From Monodelphis domestica (taxonomy: Eukaryota): a stretch of DNA of 64,000 bases. Position 1 is the first letter of the stretch. Each line of letters begins with the position of its first letter. The notes under the pieces are model-generated. The model saw only the letters and a program-made list of their open reading frames with translations. It ran no database searches and was not told the DNA's origin. A program made the translations under genes and the position numbers. The stretch covers positions 136,241,080 to 136,305,079 of the forward strand of contig NC_077233.1 of assembly GCF_027887165.1 (NCBI RefSeq). The letters run 5' to 3'. Below are positions 5,958-43,814 of this stretch, piece by piece.

Positions 5958-6193
5958 CTACAAACCAGAAAGATAGAAGTCAGACAAATCAGTCAACTAT
6001 AGGGGAAAGAGTTCATAAAACATATAGCACAGAGAGGGATATGATAGCTTCCCTGAGAGTCAGGGGCATGTGTAGATGTGCATGAGGAACAGCAATAAAA
6101 GAGTCAACACAACAGTCCCCACAAGTAATGTCAATGTGAGGGTCCAGGGGATTCTGAAGCAGTGGGATAAAGAAGGGGCCCCAGGGCCATTAC

Positions 6194-24099: not shown

Positions 24100-27000
24100 C
24101 TATGCCCCAGATGGACCCCAAGGTCCATCCTGCCTATTTTTGTAAATATTCATCCATATCACCTAGATTGGCAAATTTATTGCCATATAATTGGGCAAAA
24201 TATTTTTTTAATAATTGCCTTACTTTCCTCTTCATTGGAGGTGAGTTCTCCCTTTTCATCTATGATACTGTTAATTTGATTTTCTTCTTTCCTTTTTTAA
24301 ATTTGATTGACCACTACTTTGTCTATTTTGTTTTTTCAAAATACGAGCTTCTAGTCTTACTTATTAGTTCAATAGTTCTATCACTTTTGATTTTATTAAT
24401 TTCTCCCTTAAATTTTAGGATCTCTAATTTGGTTTTCTTCTGGGGATTTTTTATTTGTTCGCTTTCAAGTTTTTTGATTTGCATGTACAAATCACTTACC
24501 TCTGCCCTCCCTAATTTGTTACTATATAAACTCAAGGATATAAGTTTCCCCCTGAGTAGTGCTTTGGCTGCATCCCATAGGATTTGAAAGGATGTCTCAT
24601 CTTTGTCATTTTCTTCAATGAAATTATTGTTTCTATGATTTGTTCTCTAACTAACCAACTTTGGAGAATCATATTGTTTAATTTCCAATTAATTTTTTGA
24701 TTTGGCTCTCAATGTACCCTTACTGATCATTATTTTTATTGCCTTATGATCTGACAAGGTTGCATTTATTATTTCTGCTTTTCTGCATTTGTATGCCATG
24801 TTTTTATGACCTAGTATATGGTCAATCTTTGTGAATGTACCATGTGCTGCTGAAAAGAAGGTGTATTCCTTTTTGTCCCTATTTATTTTTCTCCATATAT
24901 CTATTAACTCTAATTTTTCTAAGATTTCATTCACCTCTTTTACCTCTTTCTTATTTATTTTTTTATTTGATTGATCTAAATTTGATAGTGGTAGGTTCAG
25001 GTCTCCCACTAGCATAGTTTTACTATCTATTTCCTCCTTCAATTCTACTAGTTTTTCCATTAGAAATTTGGGTGCTATACTATTTGGTGCATACATGTTG
25101 TTTGTCTATACTCTCTTTAGTCAGGATGTTTTTACCTTCCCTATCCCTTTTGATCAGGTCTATTTTGACTTTGGCTTTGTCAGATACCATGATTGCAGCT
25201 CTTGCCTTCTTTCTATCAGTTGAGGCCCAATAGGTCTTGCTCTAACCTTTAATTCTGACCTTGTGAGTATCTACTCCCCTCATGTGTGTTTCTTGAAGAC
25301 AACATATGGTAGGGTTTTGGATTCTAATCCACTCTCCTATTCATCTATGTTTTATGGGTGAGTTCATCCCATTCACATTCAGAGTTATGATTGTCACTTG
25401 TGAATTCCCTAGCATTTTGATATCCTCTCCTAGTTCTGTCCTTTCTTCTTTTTCTATATCCTTTTAAACCAATGGTTTACTTTTAACCAATCCCCCTAAT
25501 CCCCTCCATTGATATTCTTCCCTTTCTGGTCCCTCCCTTTTTGTTCCCTTTTTTTTTTTAGGGTCTGTTAAGTTCCCTACTCCCTTTCCTTCCCTCCCTT
25601 TTTGAACTCCCTCTCCTCTCCCCCACTTAGTTTCCCCTTCTCTCTTACCCTGTAGGATAAGATAGAATTAAAGATCTCAATGGATCTAGATGCTCTTCCT
25701 TCTCAGAGTTGATTTCTCTGAGAGTAAGGTTTAAGTATTCTCTATTAGCACTCTCTTTCTCTCCTTCTTATAAGAATATTTTCCCCTCCCCTTCCCATGT
25801 GTATCTTTGTGTGAAAGAGATTATTCTATTTATTTTGTTTCTTCACGTATCTCTTGGTATCCCTCTTCAATTCTCCCCCCCCCCTTTTTCTTTTCCTTTC
25901 ATATCATCTTTTAGCCCTTAATGCCCCAATCTTTTCCTATGATTGATTCTTATAATTACTATTATAATAAATATTGTTTTTGAGAGTTACAAATAACATT
26001 TTCCATTTATTAATATATATAATTTTATCTAATTGTATCACTTAAAGAAGAGAGTTTGAATTTAAAAAATAACATTTTTCTCCTTTTCCCTCTTTTTCTT
26101 ATTTACCTTTTCATATTTCTCTTGATCTTTGTGTTTGGATATCAAACTTGCCACTTAGTTCTGGTCTTTTCTTTACAAATACTTGGAAAGCTTCTATTTT
26201 GTTGAATGCCCATATTTTCCCCTGGAAATATATAGTCAGTTTTTATGGATAGATGATTCTTGGTTGAAGACCCAGTTCTCTTGCCTTTCTGAATATCATG
26301 TTCCAGGCTTTGCGGTCCTTTAGTGTGGAAACTTCCAGGTCTTGTGTGATCCTCATGGGTGCTCCTTGGTGCATCTTGGTGCACTCATGGGTGCTCTTTT
26401 TGGCTTCTTGTAGAATTTTCTCCTTAGCTTGAAAGCTCTGGAATTTGGCAATTACATTCCTGGGAGTTGTCTTTTGGGGGATTAAGTATAGAGGGTGTTC
26501 TATGAACTTTTTCCAATGTCTATTTTTTCCTCTTGTTCAAGAACATCAGGGCAGTTTTCTTGGATGATTTCTTGTATTATGATGTCAAGATTTCTGTTTA
26601 TTTCTGACTTTTCAGGTAGACCAATGATTTTCAATTTGTCTCTTTGTGATCTGTTTTCCTGATCTGTCACCTTGTCAGTGAGATAGTTTATGTTTTCTTC
26701 TATTTTGTCAGTCTTTTGACTTTGCTTTATTAATTTTTGCTGTTTTGCAAGATCATTGGCTTCCAGTTGCTCAATTCTGGTCCTTAAGGCCTGTTTTTTT
26801 TGCTTTAACCTTTTGCTTTTCTGCTATAATTTTTTGATTTTCAGCTATAATTTTTGACTCTCTTTTTGAACCATTTCCCACTTCTCTTGCCAGAAGGCTT
26901 CCATCTTTTTGATAAGCTCTGATTTAAATTCTTCCAGAGCTTGTGGACAATTTCCATTTTTTTTAGAAGGTTTTGTTTTTGTTTTAATTTCCTTCTGTAT

Positions 27001-31714: not shown

Positions 31715-31716
<2 letters not shown>

Positions 31717-31755
<39 letters not shown>

Positions 31756-31770
31756 TGTGTGTGTGTGTGT
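31717..31770. repeat. (GT)n microsatellite
   Basis: gtgtgtgt...with a single atg interruption. Confidence 0.95.
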
Positions 31771-34932: not shown

Positions 34933-34937
34933 TGTGT

Positions 34938-34989
<52 letters not shown>
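34933..34989. repeat. (TG)n microsatellite
   Basis: Perfect TG run of about 28 units. Confidence 0.95.
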
Positions 34990-34990
<1 letters not shown>

Positions 34991-35755
34991 TCCTGATCAT
35001 CATCCAGGGTATTATATAGTTATCCTTCCTAGCAGGTGTCATCTGAAGATTTAATAAGCATATTGTAAGGGTTAAATTAAGGAGTTCGACAAAGTGAGGA
35101 GAACAGTTTAACAGAAACTTTGTTTAATCTAAGAAAGAAGTACAGATAGAAAGACAGAAATGAGGAAAGAGATTATTAATCTTATACCCTATAAATATAT
35201 CTAAAATTCCTAATAACTACCTAAAATTTCCTAAAACTATCTTTGTCTTCTCAGGACAGGTTCTTCTGCCTGGTACACCAGGCCTACTCTACTCTACTCT
35301 ATCTATAAATGATTCACTAACTCCCTAACACCCTAACTCCCTAAAATAATAGACCGCCACCACTCACTCACTCTTCCAATCAGTTTTCTATAGCAGCCCA
35401 ACTGTCAGCAGCCAATTGCCAGTAGCCCCTTGCCTCAGAGACAGACCTCCTGCTCTCTAGAGATCCCAGAGGCCAAAGACCCCCAATTGTCAGTGGCTGC
35501 TTCCTTATCTTTTCACTGACAAACTGTCTCCCCAAACTTCTTGTCAGAGGGCCAGCTACTTCCTTCTCCTCAGGTCCTGGTCTCTTAGGTAACAAAATCT
35601 TCAGTTCTGGCTTACTGACTCACTGAACCTGTCAGTTCTGATACACTTAGAAATCCTGCTCTCTAACCTCCTAAGGAGACAGAGGGAGAGATTAAGAAAT
35701 CCCTTTAACAATATCATCATTTATGTCAGTAAGCTATTAAGAATCCCAGGTCCAG

Positions 35756-41500: not shown

Positions 41501-42307
41501 GGTAGGAACTTAAGGATTGGGGTCAGACACAGAGATTTGTGGGAGAAGCAGGAGGATGGGAGGGATAGGGCCAAGTGGGTAGAAGCATATGCAGTATAAT
41601 CTCCATTAAATGAATAAGTCAAATTCTCATAGGTTCAGGACTGGTTTGTTGCTATCTTTTTTTGACCTCTGGATAAATTCCCAGACCCTATAACCCAAAA
41701 AGACAGTAGAAGGTCCTAGCAGCTGGAAACTATGAACAAAGGAGAGCTACAGTCACAAACAAAACAAAACAAAACAAAAAGTTTTCATACTGGGGAGCAG
41801 AGGAGTACTACTCCCTCTTCCGGTCCCACCTCACCCCAGGAAATGGCTCTTACCACGGTGACCACATCCCCCCTGTTTCCATAGAAACACCTGGGAGGAA
41901 GAGGGTGGCAGGGAGAGCTGGGTCACAGTTTCCTAACTGCCTGCCCCGAATGGGCCCTGTTTGTGCCTATTTGGGGACTCCACCCCACTGGATGCCCTGC
42001 CAGCATGCATTGAAGTGATCATTCCTCAAAGTGGGTGAGAACAGAGGCCAGTGGAGTATCTGAAGAAACCAAGGTGAGGAGCAAGGGTAGGGAGGAGAGT
42101 TTGGAGGACCTGGAGAAAGAAAAATAACTGAAGATTCAAATCAAAGAGAGAGAGAGACTTGAAGAGGTGACAAGTCAGAGAGAGATGGGCCTTGAGAAAC
42201 AGAAAGATAGACCTGGTGGTGTAGAATGGAGACAGAGAGGCAATAGGAAAGACTTCGAGACACACAGAGAAAAAGTGACCCAAGACCTCAAGAGATTGAG
42301 AAGGGAG

Positions 42308-42312
<5 letters not shown>

Positions 42313-42376
<64 letters not shown>

Positions 42377-42389
42377 AGAGAGAGAGAGC
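42313..42389. repeat. (CA)n followed by (GA)n, compound microsatellite
   Basis: (ca) about 31 units, then gagagagagagag. It lies inside a 550-bp purine-rich tract (42100-42660). Confidence 0.95.
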
Positions 42390-42879
42390 TAGAGAGGAAA
42401 AAAACCAAAGACGGAGAGAGAGAATGAAATAGACTATATTGGCAAGACAGTAACAGACTTGGAGAGACAGTAACAGAGATACAGAGACTGGAAATCAGAC
42501 TTGAGACATAGAGATATAGTCAATGAAAGACAGATTTGGGCAGAGATAGACCAGGAAAAAAAGACAAGGGGATAAATTTAGGGAGAGATGAGAGAGACTA
42601 AAAACAAAAGGAGAGATAAATTTGGAAAAAGACCCTGAAGCATCCAGGACACCCCACCCCAACCTCATTGTCCCCCCAAAACACAAAAAAGGCAGCAGAA
42701 AAAAGGAGCAGAAACTACTGTAGGCATTGGGAAGAGGCAGGCTGACTGGGCCCTAGGGGCTAGAAAGATATTTCTGTCTTTTCTTCCCCCACTATTTCCT
42801 CTTAGGCAAGGTTTAAGGGGGGAGAAAAGGGACCCAGAAGACTCTTTAAATGCCAATGTGAGGGACATCTGACTTCTGG

Positions 42880-43157
42880 AATGGATGTGAAGCCCAAAAT
42901 GCTGAAGTATTTCTCTTCTCTCTGCCTTTGTCTCTCACTCTCTATCCCCATCTCTCTTTTTCTCTTCTGTCCTGCTCTGTGTCACCTCTCCTCTTTACCC
43001 ATCTCTCCTTCTTCCCCCTCCTCTTGGTCTTTCTCTGTATATCTGTGTGTACCTGTTTTTCTTTCTGTTTCTTGTCCCTCCCTCCTTTCTTTCTTCCTTC
43101 TCTCTTTTTGTCTCCCTAACTCTTCCATTTCTGTCTTTCCATTTCCTCTCCCTCTCC
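42880..43157 (+). repeat. About 275-nt polypyrimidine (CT-rich) tract ending at the AG acceptor preceding the C16orf54-like ATG
   Basis: The plus strand is almost exclusively C/T (tctctgcctttgtctctcactctctatccccatctctc...tcctctccctctcctag). Confidence 0.85.
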
Positions 43158-43160
43158 TAG

Positions 43161-43814
43161 ATGTCTGCACCTCTGGAACAGCTTCCTGGGCAGGTGGAGA
43201 ACCCAGTCATGCACCAACCCTCGCAGTGGCCCCCTATCCTGTGTGGACCCTGCATTCCTATCATGCTGGCCCTGGCCTTGCTGGCTGCTATCTTCCTCCT
43301 GGCCACAGCAGTCCTGGCTGAACGCCTATTCCGCCGTTCTCTCAGATCAGATCCTAGTGTCGGGAGACCTAGCCTGGTCTGGCGTCCAGGTGGGGAGCTG
43401 TGGATTGAGCCTGTGGGGACACCCCATGAACGATCTGAAGACTGGTATGGTGCAATAGCCCCTCTTCTGCACTCCCAGGTTACGGAAGCCACAATTCCTA
43501 GGGGCACTTTAGAGGCACAAGCTACAGCACCTCCTAATCCAGATTCCCCTCCCTGTCCCTCAGTTCTTCCCTGGGCCCCTGAGTCCCCTGGGAGCACATT
43601 CTGGATGGCAAATCCTTGGGAAGAAAGGCCTCGGACTACTGGTCTAGTAGGATGGTGTGAGCCACAGCCAGGGCCAGAACCCTTAAGCTCACCATTTTAT
43701 GGCAGTCACAGGCCAGGGAGCCCTGAGCCTGACTGGGGCCTACAACCACGGGTAACTCTGGAGCAGATCTCAGCTTTCTGGAGAAGAGAGAACAGGGTTG
43801 GTGGAGGACCCTGA
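43161..43814 (+). CDS. C16orf54: Single-pass transmembrane protein, 217 aa, probable C16orf54 orthologue (DUF4689-like)
   Basis: The ORF, stop included, has a TM helix PIMLALALLAAIFLLATAVLA. Its motifs CGPCIPIML, AVLAERLFRR, LVWRPGGELWIEP, RERSEDWYG and GLQPRVTLEQISAFWRRE are the ones I recall from human C16orf54. A 3' splice site (ctctcctag|ATG) directly abuts the ATG, implying an upstream non-coding exon. The strand is opposite to ZG16/KIF22, as in human 16p11.2. Confidence 0.7.
   Translation: MSAPLEQLPGQVENPVMHQPSQWPPILCGPCIPIMLALALLAAIFLLATAVLAERLFRRSLRSDPSVGRPSLVWRPGGELWIEPVGTPHERSEDWYGAIAPLLHSQVTEATIPRGTLEAQATAPPNPDSPPCPSVLPWAPESPGSTFWMANPWEERPRTTGLVGWCEPQPGPEPLSSPFYGSHRPGSPEPDWGLQPRVTLEQISAFWRRENRVGGGP

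What the first reader, a model, noticed from the sequence alone, without database searches (positions are those of the whole stretch)
42100..43160. Strand-asymmetric low-complexity architecture upstream of the C16orf54-like gene: 550-bp purine tract, (CA)31(GA)7, then 275-bp polypyrimidine tract ending at the ATG-adjacent acceptor
The plus strand switches from almost pure A/G (42100-42660, includes 42313-42389 CA/GA repeat) to almost pure C/T (42880-43157). The C/T tract terminates in ...ctctcctag|ATG. Mirror-like homopurine/homopyrimidine blocks of this size can adopt H-DNA/triplex structures and are recombination and fragility hotspots. The pyrimidine block is also an exceptionally long polypyrimidine tract for the acceptor that joins a 5' non-coding exon to the coding exon, a possible PTB/hnRNP binding platform. 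Candidate donor sites for the upstream exon are caaag|GTGGGT and accaag|GTGAGG at about 42040-42075.
Basis: seen in the sequence. Interest (0 to 1): 0.55.

Follow-up and report, generated by a model that had tools for sequence, protein, structure and literature searches.

The report
Purine-then-pyrimidine first intron of C16orf54
The flagged stretch is the whole 1,087-base first intron of an opossum C16orf54 gene; its purine-rich front and pyrimidine-rich back are real and shared by all marsupials examined, but they are drifting apart like unconstrained DNA, so only the last ~50 bases look functional.

Summary
Window 42074-43160 is intron 1 (1,087 nt, GT-AG) of a didelphid C16orf54 homologue. 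It lies between a non-coding exon 1 (donor accaag|GTGAGG, 42073|42074) and the single coding exon, whose ATG is the first exon base.

The 5' block is 73% purine, not "almost pure". The 3' block is 88% pyrimidine over 249 nt. They are the top-scoring purine and pyrimidine segments of the 64 kb.

The same layout occurs in Gracilinanus, wombat and Tasmanian devil, and more weakly in elephant, monkey and mouse. It is therefore inherited, not a lineage-specific expansion. Only the (AC)31 is lineage-specific.

There is no sign of constraint on the blocks:
- They diverge as fast as or faster than flanking non-coding DNA.
- Transversions are not depleted.
- Polarised changes run towards mixed composition.
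- Only the last 50 nt is conserved.

No H-DNA-type mirror repeat is present. Predicted purine:pyrimidine RNA pairing is extensive but equals that of composition-preserving shuffles. The 251-nt AG-free zone is expected from composition and is absent in Australian marsupials.

Verdict: an old, decaying low-complexity intron with an ordinary splice acceptor at its end. Interest is low.

The parts
41790..41960 (+). Promoter-like block upstream of and overlapping exon 1. It is nearly invariant in the 4 marsupials. It contains caggaaatgg (41837-41846, ETS-like) and tgaccaca (41859-41866, RUNX-like), both recognisable in mouse, monkey and elephant.
   Evidence: Four-species alignment. Eutherian sequences read. 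The motif assignments come from my own knowledge of the consensus sequences and were not tested.
41963..42073 (+). 3' part of exon 1; its 5' end (the TSS) was not determined. It is non-coding in this species: there is an in-frame TGA at 42011-42013, and two short uORFs start at 41992 and 42005.
   Evidence: This segment is homologous to the coding first exon of wombat isoform X1 (…KRVRTEAGGVSEETK|MS; the window encodes …KWVRTEASGVSEETK|MS).
42074..42079 (+). 5' splice site, AAG|GTGAGG.
   Evidence: It is orthologous to the annotated donors in L002 and L003, where the spliced translation equals P0002 and P0006. It is conserved in all 4 marsupials.
42074..42632 (+). Purine-rich block (73% A+G) made of degenerate GA/GACA/GAAA-type low-complexity sequence. 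The best-scoring segment runs 42028-42632.
   Evidence: Orthologous blocks of 493-681 nt at 73-77% purine occur in the other 3 marsupials. Divergence and gap columns are above the flanks. Net flux is R>Y 39 against Y>R 15.
42313..42388 (+). Perfect (AC)31 (42313-42374), then t, then a 13-nt GA run (42376-42388). This microsatellite is lineage-specific.
   Evidence: TRF result. It is absent at this position in Gracilinanus, wombat and devil, which carry other microsatellites elsewhere in the block.
42633..42909 (+). Mixed-composition middle of the intron. It holds a conserved element at 42767-42811 (gatatttctgtcttttcttcccccactatttcctcttaggcaagg) and a TATA-like ctctttaaatgcca at 42843-42856.
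   Evidence: Both are conserved in the 4 marsupials. The first has a recognisable eutherian counterpart, ggttc(t/c)catttc(t/c)tcacccaccacttcctctctaggc. Function is inferred only.
42910..43158 (+). Pyrimidine-rich block (88% C+T, 249 nt). It forms a 251-nt AG-free zone upstream of the acceptor.
   Evidence: Orthologous blocks of 209-268 nt at 87-89% Py end 2 nt before the ATG in all 4 marsupials. The distal 200 nt is 37% invariant and the last 50 nt is 66% invariant.
43116..43120 (+). Candidate branch site CTAAC, with the branch A at 43119, 42 nt upstream of the exon.
   Evidence: yTnAy scan. It is present in the window and in Gracilinanus only. This is a prediction, not a demonstration.
43159..43160 (+). 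3' splice-site AG, directly abutting the start codon.
   Evidence: It is the only AG in the last 253 nt of the intron. It is orthologous to the annotated acceptors in wombat and devil.
43161..43814 (+). Single coding exon of the C16orf54 homologue (217 aa plus stop).
   Evidence: Pfam DUF4689 at E=5.6e-112. 93% identical to the Gracilinanus agilis C16orf54 homologue.

Best explanation
Window 42074-43160 is the first intron of a marsupial (didelphid opossum) C16orf54 gene. A non-coding exon 1 is spliced from AAG|GTGAGG (42073|42074) to the AG at 43159-43160. The first base of exon 2 is therefore the A of the start codon.

The intron begins with a ~560-nt purine-rich block and ends with a ~250-nt pyrimidine-rich block. 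Both are degenerate simple-sequence DNA built from the same GAGAGACAGA / TCTGTCTCTC-type motifs. The layout was already present in the marsupial common ancestor and probably, in some form, in the therian ancestor. It has been passed down since.

Only the last ~50 nt, holding the branch-site candidate, the proximal polypyrimidine tract and the AG, behaves as constrained sequence and does the work of a normal 3' splice site. The remainder of both blocks is an unconstrained relic. It evolves at or above the local neutral rate, loses its compositional purity at the rate expected without selection, and spawns different microsatellites in different lineages by slippage: (AC)31 here, a long GA run in Gracilinanus, GA/GACA runs in the devil.

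What is shown: the coordinates, the composition, the orthology, the annotated splice model in two relatives, and the substitution patterns. What is inferred: that this species uses the same junction, and that the lack of detectable constraint means lack of function.
For: Gene and splice model:
- The ORF is DUF4689.
- Orthologous isoform X1 proteins carry …SEETK|MS…, matching window 42053-42073 joined to 43161.
- The spliced translation of L002 and L003 equals P0002 and P0006, with introns of 1,074 and 1,071 nt, both GT…AG.

Shared architecture:
- Purine blocks of 493-681 nt at 73-77% and pyrimidine blocks of 209-268 nt at 87-89%, ending 2 nt from the ATG, are present in all four marsupials.
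- Elephant has 288 nt at 72% Pu and 210 nt at 75% Py. Mouse and Colobus are weaker.
- The intron aligns end to end across the marsupials.

No constraint on the blocks:
- Identity to wombat/devil is 0.73/0.62 for the Pu block, 0.705/0.643 for the Py block, and 0.777/0.694 for other non-coding DNA.
- ts/(ts+tv) in the Py block is 0.68/0.72/0.64 against 0.67/0.65/0.64 in the flanks. Transversions per site are not depleted.
- Polarised class-changing substitutions: Py block Y>R 12 against R>Y 2 (neutral expectation 0.88; equilibrium rejected, p=0.013). Pu block R>Y 39 against Y>R 15 (expectation 0.76; equilibrium rejected, p=0.0015).
- The last 50 nt is 66% invariant against 37% for the distal 200 nt.

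Microsatellites and origin:
- Microsatellites differ by lineage. The Pu block has 2-2.8x the gap columns of its flanks.
- The intron has no transposon-like extra copies in the window and no Rfam family.
Against: - There is no transcript evidence from this species. The exact protein is not on record. The junction rests on homology to computational (NCBI) models in other marsupials.
- The mouse, the only species with a spliced read-derived contig here, uses an acceptor 86 nt upstream of the ATG. Acceptor choice can therefore differ between lineages.
- The selection tests have little power: 8-27 transversions per comparison and 14 polarised changes in the Py block. Alignments of low-complexity DNA are error-prone. 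A weak or purely compositional, length-dependent constraint could escape these tests.
- Persistence of a recognisable Pu-to-Py layout from marsupials to elephant is compatible with neutral decay from a purer ancestor. That ancestor is assumed, not observed.
Confidence: 0.72

Rival explanations
1. The 250-nt CU-rich tract is a selected splicing-regulatory platform of the large AG-exclusion-zone / distant-branch-point type. It would bind PTBP1 or related hnRNPs and control lymphoid-specific removal or retention of intron 1.
For: - The AG-free zone is 251 nt here and 248 nt in Gracilinanus.
- In human data only 165 of 67,334 introns have a zone of >=150 nt, and such exons are enriched for alternative splicing and PTB regulation (PMC1431707).
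- The block contains 14 TCTT, 12 TCTCT and 4 CTCTCT motifs.
- The block sits at the same place in all marsupials.
Against: - The AG-free zone is only 41 nt in wombat and 89 nt in devil.
- Given the composition, zero AGs is expected 37% of the time.
- A consensus branch site, CTAAC, lies at the ordinary distance of -42.
- The distal 200 nt shows no conservation excess, no transversion deficit, and a net loss of pyrimidines.
- Motif counts were not compared with a composition-matched expectation.
Confidence: 0.1
2. The purine-rich 5' half and the pyrimidine-rich 3' half pair in the pre-mRNA. This would bridge the two splice sites, as the (AC)m-(GT)n introns of fish do, or would mask the polypyrimidine tract.
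For: - In the MFE fold of the intron, 171 of 323 pairs join the purine block to the pyrimidine block, and the two intron ends close one large domain.
- The same holds in the other marsupial introns, with 160-192 such pairs.
- There is precedent for intron-bridging by complementary simple repeats (PMC4691745).
Against: - The pairing is purely compositional. MFE z = -0.08 against block-preserving shuffles, which give even more Pu:Py pairs (187 +/- 11). z = -0.62 against whole-intron shuffles. The best duplex is -194.3 against -194.6 +/- 8 kcal/mol.
- Both blocks are losing the complementarity-giving composition at the neutral rate.
- Unlike the fish class, a strong conventional polypyrimidine tract is present.
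- Folding of a 1.1-kb intron in isolation ignores co-transcriptional folding and bound proteins.
Confidence: 0.05
3. The blocks act at the DNA level as H-DNA/triplex-forming, fragile or recombinogenic sequence.
For: - Pure pyrimidine runs of 35 nt (43075-43109) and 24 nt (43002-43025) exist.
- The purine block shows raised divergence and indel turnover.
- (AC)31 is a classical Z-DNA-prone, slippage-prone repeat (Z-DNA propensity is from general knowledge).
Against: - No mirror repeat with arms >=10 nt, spacer <8 nt and >=90% AG/CT lies in either block. The best arm is 7 nt (definition from PMC11879447).
- Pure runs of >=20 nt are commonplace in this window, with 31 in 64 kb.
- The locus has stayed colinear in four marsupial lineages with an intron length of 1,071-1,138 nt. 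This argues against a rearrangement hotspot.
- The Py block has fewer gaps than the flanks against Gracilinanus.
Confidence: 0.05
4. Intron 1 is promoter-proximal regulatory DNA. The purine-rich non-template strand just downstream of the TSS would favour R-loops or bind purine-box factors (ETS/PU.1, Ikaros, IRF, MAZ). The blocks would then be part of a lymphoid enhancer.
For: - The blocks start within ~100-300 nt of a deeply conserved promoter-like block carrying ETS- and RUNX-like motifs.
- GC skew is +0.4 and AT skew is +0.4 to +0.7 over 42000-42600.
- A conserved ETS-like element lies between the blocks at 42767-42811.
- C16orf54 expression is biased to bone marrow and lymph node in human (PMC9481382 abstract).
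Against: - The conserved pieces are the promoter and the middle element, not the blocks themselves.
- The Pu block diverges faster than its flanks and is decaying in composition.
- G content is modest (26%; GC 43-46%), unlike R-loop-prone CpG-island promoters.
- No binding or chromatin data can be consulted here.
Confidence: 0.08

Closest known systems
Ordinary U2-type GT-AG intron separating a non-coding first exon from the coding exon, with degenerate microsatellite (low-complexity) filling
   Same: - Consensus donor AAG|GTGAGG.
- Pyrimidine tract plus YAG acceptor.
- Candidate branch site at -42.
- Conserved only near the splice sites.
- The interior evolves neutrally with microsatellite birth and death.
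   Different: - The degree and polarity of the compositional split are unusual. The top purine and top pyrimidine segments of 64 kb sit in one 1.1-kb intron.
- The layout is old: marsupial-wide, with an attenuated form in eutherians.
Exons with large AG-exclusion zones / distant branch points (Gooding et al. 2006, PMC1431707)
   Same: The AG-free zone is 251 nt, a size seen in only ~0.25% of human introns. The zone is pyrimidine-rich and full of PTB-type motifs.
   Different: - The large zone is not conserved in wombat (41 nt) or devil (89 nt).
- It is expected from composition alone (P=0.37).
- A proximal consensus branch site exists.
- The exon is the only coding exon, so it cannot be a cassette exon.
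(AC)m-(GT)n intron-bridging introns of teleosts (Lin et al. 2016, PMC4691745)
   Same: Complementary simple sequence sits at opposite ends of one intron, with a predicted long-range duplex closing the intron.
   Different: - The sequence is GA-rich/CT-rich and degenerate, not AC/GT repeats.
- The pairing is no better than shuffled controls.
- A conventional polypyrimidine tract is retained.
- The composition is decaying neutrally.
H-DNA-forming homopurine/homopyrimidine mirror repeats (non-B DB definition)
   Same: Purine/pyrimidine strand asymmetry, with pure Py runs of up to 35 nt.
   Different: There is no mirror symmetry of >=10-nt arms. The overall purity, 73% and 88%, is below the 90% criterion.

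Membership tests
C16orf54 / DUF4689 gene (for the downstream ORF) | Full-length match to Pfam PF15755 and orthology to annotated C16orf54 homologues | tested here: met
   E=5.6e-112, profile positions 1-223 of 223. 93% identity to Gracilinanus and 79-82% to other marsupial C16orf54 homologues.
U2-type spliceosomal intron (42074-43160) | GT donor and AG acceptor with consensus context | tested here: met
   AAG|GTGAGG at 42073|42074 and ctcctAG|ATG at 43160|43161. Both are conserved in 4 marsupials.
U2-type spliceosomal intron (42074-43160) | The junction is used in transcripts | tested here: inconclusive
   Splicing the orthologous sites reproduces the annotated X1 proteins of wombat and devil exactly. 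No transcript or exact protein record exists for this species. Mouse RNA-derived contig L008 is spliced from the neighbouring donor but to an acceptor 86 nt upstream of the ATG.
U2-type spliceosomal intron (42074-43160) | Branch-site consensus yUnAy 18-45 nt upstream of the acceptor | tested here: met
   CTAAC with its A at -42 (43119) in the window and in Gracilinanus. It is not conserved in wombat or devil. This is a prediction only.
H-DNA / intramolecular triplex motif | Mirror repeat with arms >=10 bp and spacer <8 bp | tested here: not met
   Inside the intron only (AC)31 gives such hits. The best arm in the Pu and Py blocks is 7 nt. Definition from PMC11879447.
H-DNA / intramolecular triplex motif | >=90% AG or CT content of the arms | tested here: not met
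   The blocks are 73% Pu and 88% Py overall. Pure runs (up to 35 nt) lack mirror symmetry.
H-DNA / intramolecular triplex motif | Single-strand nuclease or chemical hypersensitivity under negative supercoiling | not testable with these tools
   Needs a wet-lab assay.
Large-AGEZ / distant-branch-point exon class | AG-exclusion zone >=100-150 nt upstream of the acceptor | tested here: met
   251 nt in the window and 248 nt in Gracilinanus. Thresholds from PMC1431707.
Large-AGEZ / distant-branch-point exon class | The large zone is conserved in orthologues and exceeds the compositional expectation | tested here: not met
   41 nt in wombat, 89 nt in devil, and 6-108 nt in eutherians. Shuffles of the tract give zero AG in 37% of trials.
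Large-AGEZ / distant-branch-point exon class | Branch point at the 5' end of the zone with no proximal candidate | tested here: inconclusive
   A proximal CTAAC sits at -42. Weaker candidates sit at -164 and -224.
Intron-bridging complementary-repeat introns | Stable long-range duplex between the intron ends, beyond what composition gives | tested here: not met
   171 of 323 MFE pairs are Pu:Py, but z = -0.08 against block-preserving shuffles and duplex z = 0.04.
Intron-bridging complementary-repeat introns | U2AF2-independent splicing that depends on the repeats | not testable with these tools
   Needs minigene or depletion experiments.
PTB-binding platform | Clusters of UCUU/CUCUCU motifs in a pyrimidine context | tested here: inconclusive
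   14 TCTT, 12 TCTCT and 4 CTCTCT in 251 nt. The counts were not compared with composition-matched controls. Binding is untestable here.

The most novel reading that the evidence does not exclude
The purine-first, pyrimidine-last composition of C16orf54 intron 1 may be a functional, composition-level feature that tolerates free sequence drift. It could be a promiscuous GA:CU intron-closing duplex, or a long CU landing pad for PTB-type proteins that gates splicing of this lymphoid gene. It would have been retained since before the marsupial-eutherian split. The small-sample substitution tests used here would be too weak to see the constraint.
Probability: 0.07. Interest if true: 0.5.

Novelty: new member of a known kind. 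Interest (0 to 1): 0.2.

Why it matters
As it stands, it matters little. It fixes the exon-intron structure of an unannotated opossum C16orf54 gene: a non-coding exon 1, a 1,087-nt intron, and an ATG as the first base of exon 2. It also gives a clean worked example of a striking purine/pyrimidine architecture that is old and shared yet shows no detectable constraint, a caution against reading function into low-complexity strand asymmetry.

If the minority reading were true (composition-level intron bridging, or a PTB platform), it would extend the fish (AC)m-(GT)n principle to mammals. It would also point to a post-transcriptional control of a poorly understood lymphoid membrane protein located in the 16p11.2-syntenic region.

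Tried and rejected
- **Exact-protein look-ups.** The window protein and the bilby, koala and monito del monte proteins returned nothing. No transcript-level evidence for this species, and no further marsupial loci, could be obtained.
- **Ancient inverted duplication of one block.** Rejected. Many short inverted matches exist, but the Pu:Py duplex energy equals that of shuffled blocks.
- **Transposon origin.** Rejected. With low-complexity filtering off, the intron matches only itself and other (GT)n microsatellites in the window. It matches only orthologous positions in the other loci.
- **Structured RNA gene in the intron.** Rejected. No Rfam family in the whole window reaches its gathering threshold.
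- **Selection on pyrimidine content.** Tested by ts/tv and by polarised flux. Not found.
- **AG-exclusion zone as a signal.** Rejected as independent evidence. It is explained by composition and is not conserved.
- **First candidate donor caaag|GTGGGT.** Rejected. It lies inside the homologous exon 1.
- **The second most pyrimidine-rich segment of the window (25423-25938).** Checked as a comparator. It sits beside a LINE-1-like endonuclease ORF and is unrelated.
Full report
**What is in the sequence**

The region was read directly and quantified.
- On the plus strand, 42100-42660 is 70.9% purine (A 251, G 147, C 96, T 67).
- The stretch 42905-43160 is 85.9% pyrimidine.
- A perfect (AC)31 lies at 42313-42374, followed by t and a 13-nt GA run.
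- The C/T-rich tract ends ...ctctcctag|ATG at 43160|43161.

With +1/-2 segment scoring, 42028-42632 (73% Pu, score 122) is the best purine segment of the whole 64 kb, and the next best scores 42. The segment 42910-43158 (88% Py, score 159) is the best pyrimidine segment, and the next best scores 111, beside a LINE-1-like ORF. Shuffled windows reach at most 23 and 31.

The asymmetry is therefore real and far beyond chance. "Almost pure A/G" is an overstatement, however. The longest uninterrupted purine run in the purine block is 16 nt. The longest pyrimidine runs are 35 and 24 nt, and runs of >=20 nt are frequent in this window, with 31 in total.

**What the region is**

The ORF 43161-43814 (217 aa) matches Pfam DUF4689, the C16orf54 family, over its full length (E=5.6e-112). 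Its best database relatives are marsupial C16orf54 homologues: 93% identity to Gracilinanus agilis and 78-82% to wombat, bilby, koala, monito del monte and Tasmanian devil. The window is therefore from a didelphid opossum.

Three marsupial "isoform X1" proteins carry an N-terminal extension ending …G(V/L)SE(E/N)TK immediately before the conserved Met. Window 42032-42073 encodes …KWVRTEASGVSEETK and is followed by GTGAGG.

Splicing the orthologous sites reproduces the annotated proteins exactly:
- Wombat: L002 6001-6111 + 7186-7839 gives P0002, with an intron of 1,074 nt.
- Tasmanian devil: L003 6001-6039 + 7111-7785 gives P0006, with an intron of 1,071 nt.

By homology, the finding's coordinates are intron 1, 42074-43160 (1,087 nt, GT…AG). 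In this species exon 1 is non-coding. An in-frame TGA sits at 42011-42013 with no in-frame ATG after it. The first lies inside the exon.

I could not obtain transcript evidence for this species, because its exact protein is not on record. Use of this junction here is inferred.

**Comparison with orthologues**

Loci were fetched for Gracilinanus (L001), wombat (L002), devil (L003), mouse (L004-L009), echidna (L010), Colobus (L011) and elephant (L012).

All four marsupials have the same layout. A purine block of 493-681 nt at 73-77% starts at the donor, and a pyrimidine block of 209-268 nt at 87-89% ends 2 nt before the ATG. The whole intron aligns end to end.

Eutherians carry weaker versions:
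- Elephant has 288 nt at 72% Pu and 210 nt at 75% Py, ending at tctcccag|ATG.
- Colobus is interrupted by what looks like an Alu element.
- Mouse is weakest.

In mouse, an RNA-derived Logan contig (L008) is spliced from …gtgacag|gtgagg to an acceptor 86 nt upstream of the ATG, even though tctcccagATG is retained.

The architecture is inherited from at least the marsupial ancestor. Only the microsatellites are lineage-specific: (AC)31 here, a long GA run in Gracilinanus at a different position, and GA/GACA runs in the devil.

**Is it under constraint?**

Neighbouring non-coding DNA is largely alignable between this opossum and the Australian marsupials at 70-80% identity. Alignability alone therefore says nothing.

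| Comparison | Pu block identity | Py block identity | Other non-coding identity |
|---|---|---|---|
| vs Gracilinanus | 0.870 | 0.899 | 0.916 |
| vs wombat | 0.731 | 0.705 | 0.777 |
| vs devil | 0.619 | 0.643 | 0.694 |

- The transition share in the Py block (0.68/0.72/0.64) equals that of the flanks (0.67/0.65/0.64).
- Transversions per site are not depleted in the Py block.
- The Pu block is 1.3-1.6x more diverged and has 2-2.8x more gap columns than the flanks.
- Polarising class-changing substitutions with the other clade as outgroup gives Y>R 12 against R>Y 2 in the Py block, and R>Y 39 against Y>R 15 in the Pu block.
- Both ratios match the neutral-decay expectation (0.88 and 0.76). Both reject compositional equilibrium (p=0.013 and 0.0015).
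- Within the Py block, the last 50 nt is 66% invariant across four species, against 37% for the distal 200 nt.

The simplest reading is that only the proximal ~50 nt (branch region, polypyrimidine tract and AG) is functional. The rest would be a relic of a once purer simple-sequence tract that is slowly eroding. The counts are small and low-complexity alignments are imperfect, so a weak composition-level constraint cannot be excluded.

**Tests of the proposed mechanisms**

*H-DNA.* I used the standard definition: mirror arms >=10 bp, spacer <8 bp, >=90% AG/CT (PMC11879447). The only mirror hits in the intron are in (AC)31, which is not homopurine. The best mirror arm in either block is 7 nt. 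A purine block followed by a pyrimidine block on the same strand is an inverted relation, not a mirror one. The locus has remained colinear, with an intron length of 1,071-1,138 nt in four lineages. That does not suggest a rearrangement hotspot.

*Long polypyrimidine tract / AG-exclusion zone.* The AG-free zone is 251 nt, a size reached by ~0.25% of human introns (>=150 nt: 165 of 67,334; PMC1431707). It is only 41 nt in wombat and 89 nt in devil, and composition-matched shuffles give zero AG 37% of the time. A consensus CTAAC sits at -42 in the two didelphids.

*RNA pairing.* The MFE fold pairs 171 of 323 base pairs between the two blocks and closes the intron end to end, in all four marsupials. 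This resembles the (AC)m-(GT)n bridging introns of fish (PMC4691745). Block-preserving shuffles do just as well, though (z=-0.08; duplex z=0.04). The pairing propensity follows from composition, with no evidence of specific helices.

*Other origins.* There are no transposon-like copies and no Rfam match.

**Verdict**

The region is a new example of a known kind: a low-complexity first intron with an ordinary 3' splice site. It is notable only for how sharply and for how long the purine/pyrimidine polarity has persisted. Interest is low (0.2).

The most novel reading left open is composition-level function in intron bridging or PTB recruitment. I give it about 7%.

Noticed in passing
window 41790-41960: A promoter-like block upstream of and overlapping exon 1 is almost invariant in four marsupials and recognisable in mouse, monkey and elephant. 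It contains an ETS-like caggaaatgg (41837-41846) and a RUNX-like tgaccaca (41859-41866), which fits the lymphoid/bone-marrow expression reported for human C16orf54.
   Followed up: partly
window 42767-42811: A conserved intronic element sits between the two blocks (gatatttctgtcttttcttcccccactatttcctcttaggcaagg). Its eutherian counterpart, ggttc(t/c)catttc(t/c)tcacccaccacttcctctctaggc, contains an ETS-like core (TTCC on this strand; GGAA on the other). It may be an intronic enhancer.
   Followed up: partly
window 42843-42856: A TATA-like ctctttaaatgcca is conserved in all four marsupials about 55 nt upstream of the pyrimidine block. It could mark an internal promoter whose transcripts would carry the CU tract as an unspliced leader. 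This could not be tested without RNA data.
   Followed up: no
L005 5219-5914 and L008 1-30/27-1800: Mouse RNA-derived contig L008 shows exon 1 spliced to an acceptor 86 nt upstream of the ATG (ttccag|gaaacggg). The ATG-adjacent tctcccag is nevertheless conserved in all therians examined. Acceptor usage seems to have shifted between marsupials and mouse, or both acceptors are used.
   Followed up: partly
window 42011-42073; L002 6001-6111; L003 6001-6039: Exon 1 is coding in some marsupial gene models and non-coding here. The devil and bilby have ATG where this opossum has GTG. The wombat has an ATG further upstream. The N-terminal extension is therefore lineage-specific and probably not functional protein.
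   Followed up: partly
window 41992-42018: Two short upstream ORFs would be present in the spliced leader: an ATG at 41992 (8 codons) and an ATG at 42005 (2 codons, in frame with the main ORF and stopped by the TGA at 42011).
   Followed up: no
L010 ~6050-6176 (echidna): The echidna gene model has a 117-nt intron just before the conserved Met. It repeats the pattern in miniature, with a G/A-rich start and a ~70-nt C/T-rich end. Its upstream exon lies next to apparently SINE-like repeats (judged by eye, not tested), and the model may be artefactual.
   Followed up: no
window 24689-25096 (-) and 25423-25938: A LINE-1-like endonuclease ORF fragment (Pfam Exo_endo_phos, E=3.6e-5, just below the curated cut-off) lies next to the second most pyrimidine-rich segment of the window. 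This is probably transposon-derived low complexity.
   Followed up: partly
window 31716-31770 and 34933-34994: Two further long AC/GT dinucleotide microsatellites were found as minus-strand BLAST matches to the intronic (AC)31.
   Followed up: no
L002 6780-6840 (wombat): A wombat-specific tandem triplication of a ~25-nt unit (gatccctgggtgagaagag…) lies in the middle of the intron. It accounts for most of the gap columns there.
   Followed up: no
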